From IMG/VR virus record IMGVR_UViG_3300046804_001071, positions 1 through 53,241 of that record: DNA of 53,241 bases, one strand, 5' to 3'. A program made the translations under genes and the position numbers. Below, piece after piece: positions 2,869-51,747 of this stretch. Position 1 is the first letter of the stretch, and each line of letters begins with the position of its first letter. The notes under the pieces are model-generated. The model did no database searches. It saw only the letters and a list, made by a program, of their open reading frames with translations, and had not been told where the DNA came from. This DNA comes from a virus (lineage: Duplodnaviria > Caudoviricetes).

Positions 2869-4167
2869 ATGGCTACTCAAGATTATGCAGCCAGCATCCA
2901 GGGTGTGTCGATTCGTATCACTCGCCTAGACGCAGCTGGCAACCTACTAAATGGTCCTGGTGACAGCTATGTTACCTCGGCCTTCATGCGTGTATCGTTT
3001 ACCCCTGAATATGAAGAGGGCGACGAGATCACAGAGAAGAACGCTAACGGCGTTGTTTGTGTGACGTACAAGTCTCCTGACGTTCTAAAGCGTATTACCA
3101 TGGAACTCGCTATTTGTGAGCCAGACCCTGAAATTACTTCTCTAATTTCTGGTGGTCTATTGCTACGCAAGGGTAACCAGTCAATTGGTTGGGCTGCTCC
3201 TGGTGTAGGTGACGACCCTGCAGGTTACGGTGTAGCAGTCGAGGTTTGGTCTCACGCTATTGCTAACGGTAAGAAGAGCACGACTCTTCCTTACTTCCAC
3301 TGGGTATTCCCATACGCTAAGCTCCGTCAGTCTGGTGACCGTGTTATTGAAAACGGTATGCTTGCAACCACATTTGAAGGCTACGGCCTTGGAAACGTTA
3401 ACTTCAACAACGGTCCTGATGGTCGTTGGGAGTTCGATGTCGCTGCTGAGCGTCCATACTCTTATGCACGTGCTACCTGGGCTCCACAGGGTCTTAAGGG
3501 CTTCTACACCTGGAACTACGCTGGTGAGGGTTCGTCTGAGGACACGACCTACAATGCAGTTACCAACCTCAATGGTATCTCTGCACAGGTTACTGCAGCT
3601 GCTCTTACATCTAACGTTGCTACCATCACAACTGGTACGGCACATGGATTTGCAGTTGGCCAGAGTGTCACCCTAACTGGCGTCGAGTCGGCACTAGTTG
3701 TTACCAAGAAGGCTGTTGCTTCTAACGTAGCTACCCTAACTCTATCTAGCGTATCTGCTAACCAGGTTGCAATTGGTGACGAGGTTATCGTTGCTGGAGT
3801 CGACGAGACATTCAATGGAACTAAGACAGTTACTGGCGTAAACGTATCGGCTAAGACCATTACTTATGCTCTAACTACTGATGATGTAGCTGAGGCTAAT
3901 GCTACTGGTTCAATTGTTCGTACCTTCTTCAACACTACTGGTACAATTGACAGCGTTCCAAGCACAACTACCTTCACGTTCAACGACCGTGGTGGATCTG
4001 CTATGGCACGTACTGGTGGAAACATCACTACCATCACCTCACCTGCTGGTGCTGTAGCTTCTACAGACTCGCTAACAAGCTCGACAACCGGTTACAACGT
4101 TCCTGGTAACGTCAACTTCAACCCTGACGTAGCTATCGACCGTGTAATTCAGTCGAACGAGGGCTAA
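2869..4167 (+). CDS. Major tail tube protein with C-terminal FCCH-like beta domains
   Basis: N-terminal IRITRLDAAG and EEGDEITEKNANGVVC, typical of actinophage tail tube proteins; SD AAGGAG. Confidence 0.8.
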   Translation: MATQDYAASIQGVSIRITRLDAAGNLLNGPGDSYVTSAFMRVSFTPEYEEGDEITEKNANGVVCVTYKSPDVLKRITMELAICEPDPEITSLISGGLLLRKGNQSIGWAAPGVGDDPAGYGVAVEVWSHAIANGKKSTTLPYFHWVFPYAKLRQSGDRVIENGMLATTFEGYGLGNVNFNNGPDGRWEFDVAAERPYSYARATWAPQGLKGFYTWNYAGEGSSEDTTYNAVTNLNGISAQVTAAALTSNVATITTGTAHGFAVGQSVTLTGVESALVVTKKAVASNVATLTLSSVSANQVAIGDEVIVAGVDETFNGTKTVTGVNVSAKTITYALTTDDVAEANATGSIVRTFFNTTGTIDSVPSTTTFTFNDRGGSAMARTGGNITTITSPAGAVASTDSLTSSTTGYNVPGNVNFNPDVAIDRVIQSNEG

Positions 4168-5372: not shown

Positions 5373-5576
5373 ATGTCAGTTCAGACAAACTTCCGTGCAG
5401 TTGACATGCCAGGCGCTGTTAAGCCAGTTGTTGCTGCTCCAGAAGTAAAAAAGGTTGCTTCCCCTAAGACCGCTAAGCCCGCTGCCCCTAAGGTAGAAGA
5501 GATTGTAGCCGAGGTTGTAGAGGTCGTAGAGGCTCCTGCAGTTGTAGATGTTGAAGAAGAAAAGGACGCTGAATAA
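5373..5576 (+). CDS. Small Ala/Pro/Glu-rich hypothetical protein
   Basis: ORF with SD AGGA inside the structural operon; codon use like the capsid gene. Confidence 0.6.
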   Translation: MSVQTNFRAVDMPGAVKPVVAAPEVKKVASPKTAKPAAPKVEEIVAEVVEVVEAPAVVDVEEEKDAE

Positions 5577-5592: not shown

Positions 5593-6099
5593 ATGGGTAT
5601 TCCAATCAACATTAATGACATCTCGTCCGATGCACTCCGTCTAAAAGAAATGATGGACGGAGTGCTCGAACGTGTCCAAAATATTTACCAATCCTACAAT
5701 GTTCCTCTACCTTCTCGCCAGTACTGGACTATGGGAACTCCAGCAATCGACTGTGAGCAGTTAGTAGTTAGCTTTACTCAGATGTATCTAGGTGCCCCTG
5801 GTGACCAGGCAAACACCCCTCAGCGTTGTTACGTTCCTCGTACCGCTACTGTAGAAATTATGGTTGCTCGTGAAGTAGCTGTTGGCGGAATGAATGGTAG
5901 AGCACCATCGGCCGAATCTATTCAAAAATCCTCATGGATGTCTGCTGTCGACTCGTGGGTTCTAATGGACTCTCTTAATTCTTTCGATATGTGGGATGAA
6001 ACCGGGTATGGCTTGGGTGTTATTGCAACCCTAGAAACTGCCGGGTTTGAGGGCGGCTATAACGCTGTAATTTTGCAGCTAACTCTATCGGTGCCATAA
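5593..6099 (+). CDS. Tail terminator / neck protein (putative)
   Basis: Sits between the adaptor and the gp10-like gene; PAIDCEQLVV and GFEGG motifs. Confidence 0.55.
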   Translation: MGIPININDISSDALRLKEMMDGVLERVQNIYQSYNVPLPSRQYWTMGTPAIDCEQLVVSFTQMYLGAPGDQANTPQRCYVPRTATVEIMVAREVAVGGMNGRAPSAESIQKSSWMSAVDSWVLMDSLNSFDMWDETGYGLGVIATLETAGFEGGYNAVILQLTLSVP

Positions 6100-49351: not shown

Positions 49352-49482
49352 TGGCAAAAGGTAAAGGCGGAGGCGCAAAGCCAGCTGCAAAGGAAGTTTC
49401 TGACCGTAAGAACGGTAAGGCTTCAAAAAAGCGTCCAAAGGTTTTTGACGCAGTGAAGCGTCGATTGGTTACTCGCGACTAG
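49351..49482 (+). CDS. 43-aa highly basic protein (not in ORF track)
   Basis: MAKGKGGGAKPAAKEVSDRKNGKASKKRPKVFDAVKRRLVTRD; overlaps both neighbours (TAATG, TAGTG). Confidence 0.65.
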   Translation: MAKGKGGGAKPAAKEVSDRKNGKASKKRPKVFDAVKRRLVTRD

Positions 49483-50228
49483 TGGGAATCAAATTAGTAG
49501 CTTTTGATTTGGATGGGACTCTTGCACCTAGCAAGGGTCCTATTTCAAATGACATGGGAAAAGCCCTTAGAGATTTACTAGGGGTTGCTCAGGTCTGTAT
49601 TATCAGTGGTGGTACAAGAGAGCAGATTATGTCTCAGGTTGTGGACTTGCTTCCTGATAAGTCAAACCTTCGTAATCTACACATTATGCCTACCAGCGGT
49701 GCTCAGTATTTGAAGCGTCATCTTGGAGGATGGCGAGTTGTCTATTCCGAGAAGCTGTCAGAGGAAGAGATCGAACGCATTACTCAGAACATTCATGTAA
49801 CTGCTGCGTTACTAGGCGAGTGGCCGGAAAATCCTCACGGGGCAGTTATTGAAAACCGAGGGACTCAGGTAACATTCTCTGCTTTAGGTCAGAATGCTCC
49901 GATTGAAGAGAAAGAGCTCTGGGATCCTACTGGAGTTAGAAAAGATCGATTCCGTCGAACCCTGGCATCACTGCTTCTGGAGTTCGATGTTCGCTCTGGC
50001 GGGTCGACTAGTATCGACATTACAAAGGTTGGGATTGACAAGGGATTCGGAATTGATGAACTTATCAAGCGTACTGGACTTAAGCCAGATGACGTCCTGT
50101 TTGTGGGAGATCGACTAGACGAGGGTGGCAATGATCATTCGGTTATGCGAACTGGTGCAAACTGCTATCCAGTAGACGGACCGCTAGATACATTGCAACT
50201 TATAAAAGATTTGTTAAAAGCTACATAA
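49482..50228 (+). CDS. HAD-IIB hydrolase, phosphomannomutase-like
   Basis: FDLDGTL, ISGG, IENRG.QVTFSALG, GGSTSIDI, DKG, FVGD...GGND. Confidence 0.85.
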   Translation: MGIKLVAFDLDGTLAPSKGPISNDMGKALRDLLGVAQVCIISGGTREQIMSQVVDLLPDKSNLRNLHIMPTSGAQYLKRHLGGWRVVYSEKLSEEEIERITQNIHVTAALLGEWPENPHGAVIENRGTQVTFSALGQNAPIEEKELWDPTGVRKDRFRRTLASLLLEFDVRSGGSTSIDITKVGIDKGFGIDELIKRTGLKPDDVLFVGDRLDEGGNDHSVMRTGANCYPVDGPLDTLQLIKDLLKAT

Positions 50229-50268: not shown

Positions 50269-50603
50269 GGGGATGACTGGTTTCGACAGTTATTCTGAAG
50301 TTGGTGAAGCAAGCCGAGATAGCGGAGTCTCGTAAAACCGCTAAACAAAATAAATGCTGAATCTCGTTCTGCATTCGCTCTAGCTGCCTAACAGTAGTTT
50401 AGACGCCCCTGGCAAAGCACTAGTCTTAGGTGGGCAGCCAGGTTTTAAATAAGTAGGACAACCTGCAGTACGTCTATGCTGGAGACGTAAAACTGAAGCA
50501 CCACAGGATGTGGTAGTTCGGTCCTGGAAATATAAACTGCCTAAGCTTGTAGAAGAACAATGGATCCGTAACTGGACCGGGGTTCGATTCCCCGCATCTC
50601 CAC
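50269..50603 (+). ncRNA. ssrA: tmRNA
   Basis: 5' GGGGATGACTGGTTTCGAC; 3' T-arm CGGGGTTCGATTCCCCG then CATCTCCA; G3:U alanine identity pair; tag ORF 50356-50391 AESRSAFALAA*. CCA is not fully encoded. Confidence 0.97.
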
Positions 50604-50611
50604 GGAAAAGC

Positions 50612-50641
50612 TTGACACGACGGGAGAGGTCGTGTTAGGCT
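50612..50641 (+). promoter_or_regulatory. Promoter embedded in an inverted repeat
   Basis: TTGACA-N18-TAGGCT; hairpin TTGACACGAC-GGGAGAG-GTCGTGTTAG. Confidence 0.65.
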
Positions 50642-50647
50642 AATCTA

Positions 50648-50973
50648 CTGGCCTAGACATGCAGCAGACGCATGGCCCATAGCAACCCTAGTAATACCAA
50701 TGGACAGCGAAGACCAACACCCTCTTAGAGGACGTAAGTTAGTACCTGAGACGTGAGCTAGGCTCTGCATCGGATTCGAGAGTCGCGCCTCGATCTGGGT
50801 CTTATTATGAGAAAGAAATAGTGAGCCGCTGACTCCACCAACTGATCAGGGTGAAGCCGGGCGACTTTATATATGTACCAGACCGTTAGGCGGTCGAACG
50901 GGTAATGGCTGTCCGGACGGACAGCTCGATGCCCGGGGCAAACACCCGTCACTTCGGTGGCGGGTTTTTGTTT
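50648..50973 (+). ncRNA. Unidentified ~320-nt structured RNA
   Basis: Own promoter and terminator, many complementary segments, no credible ORF. Confidence 0.65.
50944..50973 (+). terminator. Intrinsic terminator
   Basis: ACCCGTCAC-TTCG-GTGGCGGGT-TTTTGTTT. Confidence 0.9.
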
Positions 50974-51051
50974 GTACAAACTTAGGATTAAGAATGTACA
51001 AAGCGTGGTACCATATAAACAGGAAAAGCGTAACTTTATACAAGAAGAGAA

Positions 51052-51747
51052 GTGATGGACGCCCTTAACCCTGGTAAAGCCCTACTATATGCCCGAGTAT
51101 CCACTCAGCTGCAGGTAAACGACGGAGTTTCGTTGGATGTTCAGGAGCGAACCCTAATCACCGCCGCCGAGTTCCACGGGTTCAAGGATTTCGAAGTTAT
51201 CCGCGAGGAAGGCCGATCTGGTAAAAGTATCAAGGGTCGACCAGTATTAACAGACGCCCTTACTAGATTAGAGTCCGGCGAAGCAAACGCCCTTATTGTT
51301 ACCCGAATCGACCGACTTGCTAGGTCGACCACTGACTTCTTGGACATTGTGGACCGAGCAAGCAAAAAAGGCTGGCGTTTGATCATGCTGGACCTAAATC
51401 TGGACACTTCGACCTATCAAGGACGCTTTGTGGTCACAGTAATGAGTGCTTTGGCCGAAATGGAGCGCGGAATCATAGCCGCGAGACAGAAAGACGTCCA
51501 CAAGGACCGTAGAGACCGTGGCATAGTTTGGGGGGTAGATATGGGGCCGAAAAACCGCACTTTACCCGAAATCAAGGAAAGAATCGTGGCTGAGAGGGCT
51601 GCTGGAAAGAGTTTTGGCAAGATAGCCGACGGATTAAATGCAGATGGTATACCTACACAAAACAACAGAAAGTGGTATGCTTCGACTGTGAAGAACATAG
51701 TAGACGCCCTTATTGAAGGAGAAGCTGATGGCAAGACGGAAATCTAA
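51052..51747 (+). CDS. Serine recombinase (resolvase catalytic domain plus short recombinase DNA-binding domain)
   Basis: YARVST, SGKS..RP, RIDRLARS, AEMER, IADGLNADGIPT...W. Confidence 0.92.
   Translation: MMDALNPGKALLYARVSTQLQVNDGVSLDVQERTLITAAEFHGFKDFEVIREEGRSGKSIKGRPVLTDALTRLESGEANALIVTRIDRLARSTTDFLDIVDRASKKGWRLIMLDLNLDTSTYQGRFVVTVMSALAEMERGIIAARQKDVHKDRRDRGIVWGVDMGPKNRTLPEIKERIVAERAAGKSFGKIADGLNADGIPTQNNRKWYASTVKNIVDALIEGEADGKTEI

What the first reader, a model, noticed from the sequence alone, without database searches (positions are those of the whole stretch)
50612..50973. Unidentified ~320-nt highly structured ncRNA between tmRNA and the serine recombinase
Seen: a complete transcription unit (TTGACA-N18-TAGGCT through a cUUCGg terminator with U-tract) and no sense ORF. 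Pairings: GGCCTAG(50650)/CTAGGCT(50758); CATGC/GCATG; AAGACC(50710)/GGTCTT(50798); CCTC/GAGG; GATTCGAG/CTCGATC; AGAGTCGC(50779)/GCGACTTT(50861); CCGGGC(50857)/GCCCGG(50931); TACC-GACCG/CGGTC-GGTA; and GCTGTCC(50908), which can pair with GGACAGC at 50919 or its second copy at 50702. Several helices cross or compete, implying pseudoknots or a switch. I see no RNase P, SRP, group I/II intron or tRNA hallmarks. Inference: a new phage RNA class, for example an RNAP-binding Ms1/6S analogue, a ribozyme, an anti-defence decoy or a recombinase partner.
Basis: partly seen in the sequence, partly recalled or inferred. Interest (0 to 1): 0.85.

Follow-up and report, generated by a model that had tools for sequence, protein, structure and literature searches.

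The report
Two orphan phage RNAs beside tmRNA
The stretch is not one large RNA but two small, separately conserved folded RNAs of unknown function that a freshwater actinobacterial phage carries in a cluster of RNA genes next to its tmRNA.

Summary
The sequence features are at the stated coordinates: the hexamers, the cUUCGg terminator, no sense ORF, every listed complementary pair. The single ~320-nt RNA is not supported. Relatives show two separable modules. Module A (50650-50801) has covarying helices and lies directly after a tmRNA gene in all 13 distinct contigs that carry it (three lineages). Module B (50876-50938) is two covarying hairpins found in three sequences, each time just before an intrinsic terminator. 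In the close relative L114, A and B are about 355 nt apart, with a tRNA-Asn between them and a manA RNA after B. The window looks like a deletion derivative of that layout. No Rfam 15 family matches A or B. One metatranscriptome contig covers A, joined to L114-like downstream sequence. The two long-range pairings within A were counted and score no better than controls. The A-to-B pairings and the 'switch' were not counted; separability argues against them. Best reading: independently folding stable small RNAs made from a phage RNA operon (tmRNA, A, optional tRNA, B, terminator), probably acting in trans. Function is unknown. These are new orphan RNA motifs with a narrow distribution, so interest is moderate.

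The parts
50269..50605 (+). Phage tmRNA gene, tag peptide AESRSAFALAA. It anchors the RNA island.
   Evidence: Rfam RF00023, 145.3 bits; ARAGORN.
50612..50641 (+). Promoter-like element: TTGACA (50612-17), 18-nt spacer holding the hairpin CACGAC/GTCGTG (50616-34), then TAGGCT (50636-41).
   Evidence: Sequence. TTGACA is invariant, and a TAnnnT hexamer (TAGGCT, TAGATT or TAATGT) follows at 17-18 nt in all three lineages although the spacers differ. The simple consensus scan does not call it. An RNA-library contig already starts at 50618, upstream of the -10 hexamer.
50650..50801 (+). Module A, a ~152-nt structured RNA.
- Closing helix P1: 50650-57 with 50794-801.
- Hairpin P2: 50658-74.
- Conserved unpaired CCCAUAGCAACC (50676-87) and GCAUCGGA (50767-74).
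- Hairpin P6: 50775-93, with a conserved GUCGCG-containing loop.
- The central part (50688-50766) is unresolved.
   Evidence: Model R1 scores 131.7 bits here. Across 7 distinct sequences, 91.5% of cells pair against 76.4% shuffled (0 of 500). P1 has 5 of 8 pairs changed on both sides, P2 2 of 5, P6 4 of 6. Helices 3-5 are weak.
50802..50875 (+). Junction. 50802-50833 continues the homology to L114 (93%) and is the 5' part of a further element that looks truncated here (by eye). 50834-50875 has no counterpart in any relative.
   Evidence: blastn segment boundaries; alignment A6; L114 sequence.
50876..50938 (+). Module B, ~63 nt. Hairpin B1 is 50881-95. The long hairpin B2 is 50899-50935: outer CGGGUA/UGCCCG, inner GCUGUCC-GGAC-GGACAGC. 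UACCAG, GAACGGGUAAUGG and CUCGAUGCC are invariant.
   Evidence: Model R2 scores 98 bits. In 3 sequences, 98.4% of cells pair and 5 pairs changed on both sides, reached by 2 of 500 shuffles. Homology to L114 and L162 starts at 50876.
50944..50975 (+). Intrinsic terminator: 9-bp stem, UUCG loop, U-tract.
   Evidence: Terminator scan. The same terminator (91% identity) follows a different upstream module in L004, without B.
51005..51050 (+). Conserved block directly upstream of the recombinase start. It belongs to the recombinase gene's leader, not to the RNAs.
   Evidence: blastn: 89% to L002-L005; 93% to L114 as part of a longer segment.
51052..51747 (+). Small serine recombinase, 231 aa (Resolvase N-terminal domain plus a partial Recombinase domain). 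It is a neighbour, not a partner.
   Evidence: Pfam PF00239 112 bits, PF07508 35.7 bits. Only 4 of 80 loci encoding its relatives share the upstream DNA.

Best explanation
The window comes from a large freshwater actinobacterial phage. Next to its tmRNA gene the phage keeps an 'RNA island' of interchangeable small structured RNA modules, all on the same strand. In this phage the island holds module A, a truncated remnant, module B and one intrinsic terminator.

A and B are independent folding units, each with its own helices. In a close relative, a tRNA-Asn and another element lie between them and a manA RNA follows B. The window is a deletion derivative of that layout.

Inferred:
- The island is transcribed as a multi-RNA precursor from the conserved TTGACA/TAnnnT promoter, and probably also by read-through from the tmRNA gene.
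- The precursor ends at the terminator and is cut into separate stable RNAs by host tRNA-processing and other RNases.
- A and B then act in trans, more likely by binding a protein than by pairing with an mRNA.

Their target and role are not known.
For: Shown:
1. Phage identity. The record is a viral contig. The major tail protein is 75% identical over 55% of its length to Actinomycetia phage DSL-LC01, and about 50% identical over full length to Microbacterium phages.
2. Module A is conserved. It occurs in three lineages at 78-93% (window, L114, L004) or much lower identity (L021 group), with compensatory changes in P1, P2 and P6.
3. A is tied to the tmRNA. All 13 distinct A-bearing contigs have it directly after a tmRNA.
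4. In the L021 lineage A has its own promoter-like hexamers and its own terminator.
5. Module B is conserved in 3 sequences, with compensatory changes in both hairpins.
6. Separability. L114 reads tmRNA, A, ~150 nt, tRNA-Asn, a further element, B, terminator, manA RNA (61 bits against a cut-off of 55.2), terminator, recombinase. L162 has B without A, and the L021 and L004 lineages have A without B.
7. G-U pairs in the supported helices fit the + strand only.
8. Frame-breaking 1-, 2- and 4-nt indels between the window, L114 and L004 rule out a conserved ORF.
9. RNA-library evidence. A 329-nt contig (depth 76) in a metatranscriptome run covers 50618-50816 with one difference and continues 112 nt into L114-like sequence.
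10. The non-coding gap after the tmRNA is at least 200 nt in 15 of 17 related loci.

Inferred: processing into separate RNAs, action in trans, protein binding.
Against: - Thermodynamics does not single out A (z = 0.06). The minus strand of the whole region folds slightly better than the plus strand (z -2.85 against -1.81).
- Covariation rests on only three lineages for A and three sequences for B. Shuffle controls overstate significance for related sequences.
- The central half of A has no supported structure.
- The RNA-library contig is an assembled contig. It shows neither strand nor ends reliably, and DNA can be present in RNA libraries. It starts at 50618, upstream of the proposed -10 hexamer, so the promoter may not be the only or the real start.
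- No discrete processed species, target or partner has been shown.
- No cover of B was obtained.
- The families are rare. A is in 10 of 31 related tmRNA-bearing IMG/VR contigs and B in 1 of 31. Neither was found in 2 isolate phages. A was not found in 153 Actinomycetes-class genomes or in 29 pattern loci from genomes. B was not searched in cellular genomes.
Confidence: 0.62

Rival explanations
1. One reading: one ~320-nt RNA (50648-50970) whose long-range and competing helices form pseudoknots or a switch, as a single new RNA class.
For: In this window A and B share one promoter-like element and one terminator, with no terminator between them. All listed complementary segments exist.
Against: A and B occur apart in relatives, and about 355 nt with a tRNA separate them in L114. 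The bridging pairings use 50834-50875, which no relative has. GGCCTAG/CTAGGCT and AAGACC/GGTCTT pair no better than slid controls and compete with the covarying closing helix. The whole region's fold has z = -1.8.
Confidence: 0.06
2. Cis-regulatory leader. B with its terminator (or A with its terminator in the L021 lineage) is a riboswitch-like attenuator that controls read-through into the downstream protein genes (recombinase, DUF7246).
For: B lies 5-6 nt before an intrinsic terminator in 3 of 3 cases. In the L021 lineage the order is promoter, A, terminator, then an ORF start about 20 nt later. A manA RNA, a published riboswitch candidate (PMC2864571, passages read), sits in the same leader in L114. 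By eye, ACGGGU (50898-50903) can pair with ACCCGU (50944-50949) of the terminator's 5' arm.
Against: What follows differs. After A comes B, a tRNA-Asn, or a DUF7246 ORF. After B comes a recombinase, a manA RNA, or an unrelated ORF. The window's terminator occurs in L004 without B, and B occurs with three different terminators. The by-eye antiterminator pairing shrinks to 4-5 bp in L114 and L162.
Confidence: 0.12
3. Passive spacers. The helices are only processing or stability signals, or decaying remnants, in a tmRNA/tRNA precursor, with no function of their own.
For: Modules are gained and lost freely among close relatives. 50802-50875 of the window does look like a deletion scar. A is thermodynamically unremarkable.
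Against: Unpaired segments are the most conserved parts. CCCAUAGCAACC, GCAUCGGA and the GUCGCG-containing loop persist in A across lineages whose stems have diverged. B is 89% identical, with changes confined to compensated stem positions. Remnants or simple processing hairpins would not keep that pattern.
Confidence: 0.13
4. Protein-coding on the minus strand (ORFs 50645-50770, 41 aa, and 50758-50979, 73 aa).
For: These ORFs exist.
Against: 1-, 2- and 4-nt indels against L114 and L004 break both frames. The 73-aa ORF spans pieces that lie far apart in L114, with a tRNA-Asn between them. Substitutions are compensatory in RNA helices.
Confidence: 0.01

Closest known systems
GOLLD and ROOL RNAs (large orphan RNAs often found in prophages near tRNA genes)
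   Same: Structured non-coding RNAs of unknown function carried by phages next to tRNA-type genes. The discoverers suggest the proximity may reflect co-transcription with tRNAs (PMC5737381, passages read).
   Different: GOLLD and ROOL are far larger (ROOL averages 581 nt per the paper). A is ~152 nt and B ~63 nt. Neither family appears at E up to 10 in the Rfam scan of this region.
manA RNA motif (RF01745)
   Same: An orphan structured RNA carried by phages. A copy sits in the same island in the close relative L114, between B's terminator and the recombinase gene (61 bits against a cut-off of 55.2).
   Different: The window has no manA RNA; that segment is absent here. A and B do not match the manA model. 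manA was described in marine metagenome sequences, T4-like cyanophages and two gamma-proteobacteria as a 5'-UTR element (PMC2864571, passages read).
Phage T4 'species 1 and 2' stable RNAs in its tRNA gene cluster (recalled, not checked in any call)
   Same: Small stable RNAs of unknown function encoded inside a phage tRNA cluster and matured from the same precursors as tRNAs. This is the working model proposed here.
   Different: No sequence comparison was made. The host, the phage type and the association with a tmRNA are different.
6S RNA / Ms1
   Same: Similar size to A. The 5' and 3' ends pair in a closing helix.
   Different: No hit to any 6S or Ms1 model at E up to 10. A has an 8-bp closing helix and several short hairpins, not a long interrupted rod with a central bubble (that architecture is recalled).

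Membership tests
Any Rfam 15 family (4227 models, including 6S, Ms1, RNase P, SRP, group I/II introns, Y RNA-like, raiA, GOLLD, ROOL, manA) | Covariance-model score at or above the family's gathering threshold | tested here: not met
   The whole window at gathering thresholds gives only the tmRNA. For 50550-51080 at E up to 10, the best non-tmRNA match is FTHFS at 30.4 bits against a cut-off of 72.6, placed on the terminator and recombinase leader (50945-51047), not on A or B.
tRNA / tRNA-like | Cloverleaf recognised by ARAGORN or the Rfam tRNA model | tested here: not met
   No tRNA anywhere in the 53-kb window. Relatives carry a tRNA-Asn (61-69 bits) where the window has the junction and B.
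Intrinsic (Rho-independent) terminator | G+C-rich stem-loop followed by a U-tract | tested here: met
   50944-50965: 9 pairs, 6 of them G-C, UUCG loop, then TTTTTGTTTGT. A homologous terminator is present in L004.
Sigma-70/SigA-type promoter | -35 and -10 hexamers at 16-18 nt, conserved in relatives, with the transcript starting downstream | tested here: inconclusive
   TTGACA is invariant, and TAGGCT, TAGATT or TAATGT follows at 17-18 nt in three lineages. The consensus scan does not call it. An RNA-library contig already begins at 50618.
Transcription-terminating riboswitch | Conserved aptamer tied to one class of downstream genes, with an expression platform that depends on it | tested here: not met
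   Downstream elements differ in each lineage. The window's terminator occurs without B in L004. Ligand binding cannot be tested with these tools.
Structured RNA family in its own right (modules A and B) | Homologues in several lineages with compensatory base changes in the proposed helices | tested here: met
   A: 7 distinct sequences, 13 of 32 pairs changed on both sides, 91.5% of cells paired against 25.9-39.3% for slid controls. B: 5 of 21 pairs changed on both sides, 98.4% paired against 27.0-42.9% slid. Caveat: there are only three lineages for A and three sequences for B.

The most novel reading that the evidence does not exclude
Module A is a dedicated partner of the phage tmRNA. It is a trans-acting RNA found only directly downstream of phage tmRNA genes. 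It would modulate trans-translation or ribosome rescue during infection, for example by titrating a host factor that handles tmRNA. More broadly, the tmRNA-adjacent island of these freshwater actinophages would be a cassette array of several undescribed RNA classes (A, B, the AAAGGUC...GACCUUU element and tRNA-like pieces) exchanged by recombination.
Probability: 0.1. Interest if true: 0.8.

Novelty: new member of a known kind. Interest (0 to 1): 0.4.

Why it matters
Phage-encoded structured RNAs of unknown function, such as GOLLD, ROOL and manA, are a standing puzzle. Here a narrow clade of freshwater actinobacterial phages shows a compact hotspot next to the tmRNA gene. At least two, and probably more, undescribed folded RNAs are shuffled there as modules alongside a tRNA and a manA RNA.

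That gives a defined place to look for new RNA classes. Each lineage's module content forms a small natural set of gain and loss variants for testing what the modules do. The strict link between A and the tmRNA is a concrete, testable lead to a function in translation or ribosome rescue.

The practical value is limited for now. The families are rare, no isolate phage carrying them was found, and no function is shown.

Tried and rejected
- **DNA similarity to isolate phages:** blastn of 50606-51051 found no match.
- **Recombinase synteny:** 80 loci encoding recombinase relatives were fetched. Only 4 share the upstream DNA, so the recombinase is not a partner.
- **Pattern scans for A:** beyond the known lineages, almost all hits were chance matches. 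Model R1 confirmed 3 of the 70 metagenome and genome loci, and 0 of the 29 genome loci. The 8 new IMG/VR loci look coding and lack the 3' motifs. Their weak R1 scores (11-27 bits) were judged chance by eye.
- **Marginal R1 hits set aside:** L071 (13.1 bits, E 1.5) and L185 (17.3 bits, E 0.031, on the strand opposite its tmRNA).
- **Marginal R2 hit set aside:** L166 (13.7 bits, E 0.012).
- **Pattern scans for B:** only L162 is real. L163 and L164 are coding-looking chance hits.
- **Isolate phages:** DSL-LC01 and Pumpernickel carry neither A nor B.
- **Cellular genomes:** R1 found no A in 2 genomes or in 151 genomes of the Actinomycetes class. The tool warns that an empty answer without a positive control shows little. 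B (R2) was not searched in cellular genomes.
- **Targets by complementarity:** reverse complements of the conserved A and B motifs occur in the window no more often than in shuffles.
- **A-tmRNA duplex:** energy equals that of shuffled A (n = 20 shuffles each, 3 lineages), so it is uninformative.
- **My own central helices for A** (CCUAG/CUAGG and the CCUC/GAGG hairpin) are not supported across lineages.
- **RNA runs:** 4 of the 6 RNA rows among the 24 listed runs were laid.
  - X20, X21 and X22 gave only tmRNA-like pieces at 85-99% likeness, probably from other organisms.
  - No contig covered 50820-51100 or 50200-50261.
- **Tools and files that were closed:**
  - The search of earlier findings, so no earlier findings were used.
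  - The look-up of encoding contigs, by its description; it was not called.
  - Supplementary files of papers. The motif lists of PMC5737381 and PMC2864571 could not be checked directly. I rely on Rfam 15 holding them, which I did not verify.
- **Literature searches:** none returned a description of these RNAs. They were few and by keyword, so 'not in print' is only as strong as those four searches plus the Rfam scans.

Full report
**What is in the window**

The window is a linear viral contig, estimated 32% complete. Its major tail protein (2869-4164) is 75% identical over 55% of its length to Actinomycetia phage DSL-LC01 from lake water. It is about 50% identical over full length to large Microbacterium phages, and nearly all of the 489 matching records are actinobacteriophages.

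The neighbourhood of the finding, all on the + strand:
- an HAD/phosphomannomutase-like gene (49482-50228);
- a tmRNA gene (50269-50605; 145 bits, tag AESRSAFALAA);
- the 446-nt non-coding stretch in question;
- a 231-aa resolvase-type serine recombinase (51052-51747);
- a DUF7246 gene.

**Checking the observation**

- TTGACA (50612-17), 18 nt, TAGGCT (50636-41);
- a 9-bp UUCG-loop terminator (50944-65) with a U-tract;
- no sense ORF above 26 aa;
- each listed pair of complementary segments.

No Rfam 15 family reaches threshold, and nothing falls on these RNAs even at E up to 10.

As a single molecule, however, the region is not unusually stable:
- + strand: z = -1.81, with 3 of 100 shuffles as good;
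- minus strand: z = -2.85.

Split in two, 50650-50801 has z = 0.06 and 50873-50975 has z = -5.15. Thermodynamics alone therefore supports only the 3' end.

**Relatives split the region into modules**

Of 80 viral loci encoding relatives of the recombinase, only 4 (L002-L005) share any of this DNA. They share three segments:
- 50612-50817 at 80% identity;
- the terminator;
- a block just upstream of the recombinase start.

Between the first two segments they carry a tRNA-Asn. After the terminator come two extra ORFs.

Five other recombinase loci of one lineage (L019, L021, L023, L031, L033), plus L082 from a pattern scan, have the following directly after a related tmRNA:
- the same TTGACA hexamer;
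- a -10-like TAATGT;
- a much more divergent copy of the first segment that keeps CCCAUAGCAACC, GCAUCGGA and a hairpin whose loop contains GUCGCG;
- its own terminator.

I call this segment module A.

A metagenome contig, L114, is the closest relative. It has the same flanking genes, and A is 93% identical. Its layout is:
- tmRNA;
- A (5412-5572);
- about 150 nt;
- tRNA-Asn (5723-5795);
- a three-way-junction element;
- a homologue of window 50876-50981;
- a terminator;
- a manA RNA (RF01745, 61 bits against a cut-off of 55.2);
- another terminator;
- the recombinase.

I call the homologue of 50876-50938 module B.

The blastn boundaries show what the window lacks relative to L114:
- about 335 nt holding the tRNA-Asn;
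- about 283 nt holding the manA RNA.

In place of the first stretch the window has 42 nt (50834-50875) with no counterpart anywhere. The 320-nt unit in the window is therefore a composite made by deletion.

**Module A (50650-50801)**

A covariance model (R1) finds A in these places:
- the window (131.7 bits);
- L114 (113 bits);
- L002-L005 (103 bits);
- the L021 group including L082, L094 and L118 (165-168 bits).

It finds A nowhere else among the sets searched:
- 82 sources searched first;
- 70 pattern loci from metagenomes and genomes (3 confirmed, and 0 of the 29 genome loci);
- 21 further tmRNA loci;
- 2 isolate phages;
- 153 Actinomycetes-class genomes.

Eight further pattern loci gave only weak scores (11-27 bits) that I judged chance by eye.

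All 13 distinct A-bearing contigs have it directly after a tmRNA gene. Of 31 IMG/VR contigs with this tmRNA type, 10 carry A.

On 7 distinct sequences, 91.5% of cells pair in the model structure. Shuffles give 76.4% (0 of 500 reach the observed value) and slid controls give 25.9-39.3%. The support lies in three helices:
- the closing helix P1 (50650-57 with 50794-801), with 5 of 8 pairs changed on both sides;
- hairpin P2 (50658-74), 2 of 5;
- hairpin P6 (50775-93), 4 of 6.

The middle of A has no supported structure. The model's helices 3-5 and my own candidate helices both fail.

By eye, the middle holds two imperfect repeats of a UAGUA...GA(A/G)AC motif flanking a small variable hairpin.

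G-U pairs in the supported helices fit the + strand only.

**Module B (50876-50938)**

Model R2 finds B only in the window, in L114 and in L162 (95-100 bits). L162 is a viral contig with the same tmRNA type but no A.

B consists of a short hairpin (50881-95) and a long one (50899-50935). Five of 21 pairs changed on both sides, and 98.4% of cells pair against 27.0-42.9% for slid controls. The unpaired parts are invariant.

B always lies 5-6 nt before a UUCG-loop terminator, but the three terminator stems differ. The window's terminator recurs in L004 without B. B and the terminator are therefore separate parts.

Four are supported:
- CATGC/GCATG;
- GATTCGAG/CTCGATC;
- GACCG/CGGTC;
- GCTGTCC/GGACAGC at 50919.

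GGCCTAG/CTAGGCT and AAGACC/GGTCTT hold only within the window's own lineage. Across 7 sequences they score 55-57% paired, against 57% for a control slid by one column. They also compete with the covarying closing helix.

AGAGTCGC/GCGACTTT and CCGGGC/GCCCGG use the 42 nt that no relative has. The second GGACAGC copy lies in A, which occurs without B in most relatives. I did not count these three pairings.

An alternative partner for GCCCGG, namely CGGGUA at 50899-50904, tolerates the C-to-U change in L162 as a G-U pair.

The case for pseudoknots or a switch therefore falls away.

**Expression**

Four metatranscriptome runs were laid, all as assembled contigs. One run, X7, holds a 329-nt contig at depth 76 that covers 50618-50816 with one difference.

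The contig continues for 112 letters into sequence that matches L114's continuation rather than the window's. Its other end carries 18 loose letters that I recognise, from recall, as a sequencing adapter tail.

This shows that A, joined to the following element, is present in an RNA library. It is compatible with co-transcription. The start at 50618 lies upstream of the proposed -10 hexamer, which suggests read-through from the tmRNA gene as well as, or instead of, the local promoter.

Contigs cannot give strand or true ends, and DNA carry-over cannot be excluded.

**How it most likely works**

Shown:
- two conserved, independently folding RNA modules on the + strand;
- they lie in an island of RNA genes whose content varies between close relatives;
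- the non-coding gap after the tmRNA is at least 200 nt in 15 of 17 loci.

Inferred:
- The island is transcribed as a multi-RNA precursor and cut into stable pieces, as tRNA operons are.
- A and B act in trans.
- I favour protein binding for two reasons. The best-conserved parts are unpaired motifs and loops, and the motifs have no excess complementary sites in the window.

The strict link of A to the tmRNA points to translation or ribosome rescue, but nothing tests that. A-tmRNA duplex energies equal those of shuffles.

Rivals considered:
- a riboswitch-like attenuator, weakened by the varying downstream genes and the separable terminator;
- passive processing spacers or remnants, weakened by conserved unpaired motifs;
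- minus-strand ORFs, excluded by frame-breaking indels.

**Comparison and novelty**

The nearest known things are other orphan phage RNAs that sit beside tRNA genes:
- GOLLD and ROOL. PMC5737381 (passages read) notes their proximity to tRNAs and possible co-transcription.
- manA RNA, described in PMC2864571 (passages read) and present in the same island in L114.
- By recall only, the stable 'species 1 and 2' RNAs of the phage T4 tRNA cluster.

A and B are members of none of these families. Four keyword literature searches found no description of them. Supplements were closed.

I rate them as new members of a known kind: real, but rare, with no function shown. Interest is moderate.

Noticed in passing
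L114 6075-6255 (absent from the window between 50975 and 51005): The close relative carries a manA RNA (RF01745, 61 bits against a cut-off of 55.2) with its own terminator, between B's terminator and the recombinase gene. manA was described in marine metagenome sequences, T4-like cyanophages and two gamma-proteobacteria. Here it is on a metagenome contig syntenic with this actinophage-like window, beside a phosphomannomutase-like gene.
   Followed up: partly
whole window 1-53241; L002-4, L008, L012, L018, L114: The 53-kb window has no tRNA gene at all. Several relatives carry a tRNA-Asn (GTT) just after the tmRNA or after module A. The window appears to have lost it by deletion.
   Followed up: yes
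L004 ~1666-1735; L018 ~1615-1685; L114 5797-5853; L012 ~1452-1518: By eye, a ~60-70-nt element with closing helix AAAGGUC...GACCUUU enclosing two hairpins flanks the tRNA-Asn in four lineages. The inner sequences differ. It may be a third undescribed module and has no Rfam match at E up to 0.1.
   Followed up: no
L008 1664-1935 and L012 ~1594-1870: About 270 nt of non-coding, conserved sequence follows the tRNA-Asn. It ends in a tRNA-like acceptor/T-arm (GGTTCAAGACCTGC then an acceptor 3' strand) that neither ARAGORN nor the Rfam tRNA model calls. It may be a tRNA-like RNA or an interrupted tRNA.
   Followed up: no
L162 3950-4005 (minus strand): Between the tmRNA and module B lies a tRNA-like piece, with acceptor-like GGGTAGT...ACTACCC and a T-arm-like hairpin. 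ARAGORN does not call it.
   Followed up: no
L004 1838-2431 compared with window 51052-51747: An inserted 197-aa ORF in the L002-L005 lineage has a weak GIY-YIG N-terminus (16.7 bits, below the cut-off). Its C-terminal 72 residues are 54% identical to the recombinase's DNA-binding end. A homing-endonuclease-like gene thus shares a DNA-binding module with the neighbouring recombinase.
   Followed up: partly
window 50971-51050: An inverted repeat (TGTACA...TGTACA around AACTTAGGATTAAGAA) and a 46-nt block before the recombinase start are conserved in L004 and L114; the repeat motif also recurs in L008. It is probably the recombinase promoter or operator. Rfam gives a sub-threshold FTHFS match here (30.4 against 72.6 bits), which I take as chance.
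   Followed up: no
window 50600-50605: The tmRNA gene ends ...CUCCACGG, so the 3' CCA is not encoded and must be added after processing. The same holds in L004 and L114.
   Followed up: no
window 50767-50772 and 50927-50932: A's conserved GCAUCG is the exact reverse complement of B's conserved CGAUGC (6 bp). Because A and B mostly occur without each other, I treat this as coincidence, but it was not tested.
   Followed up: no
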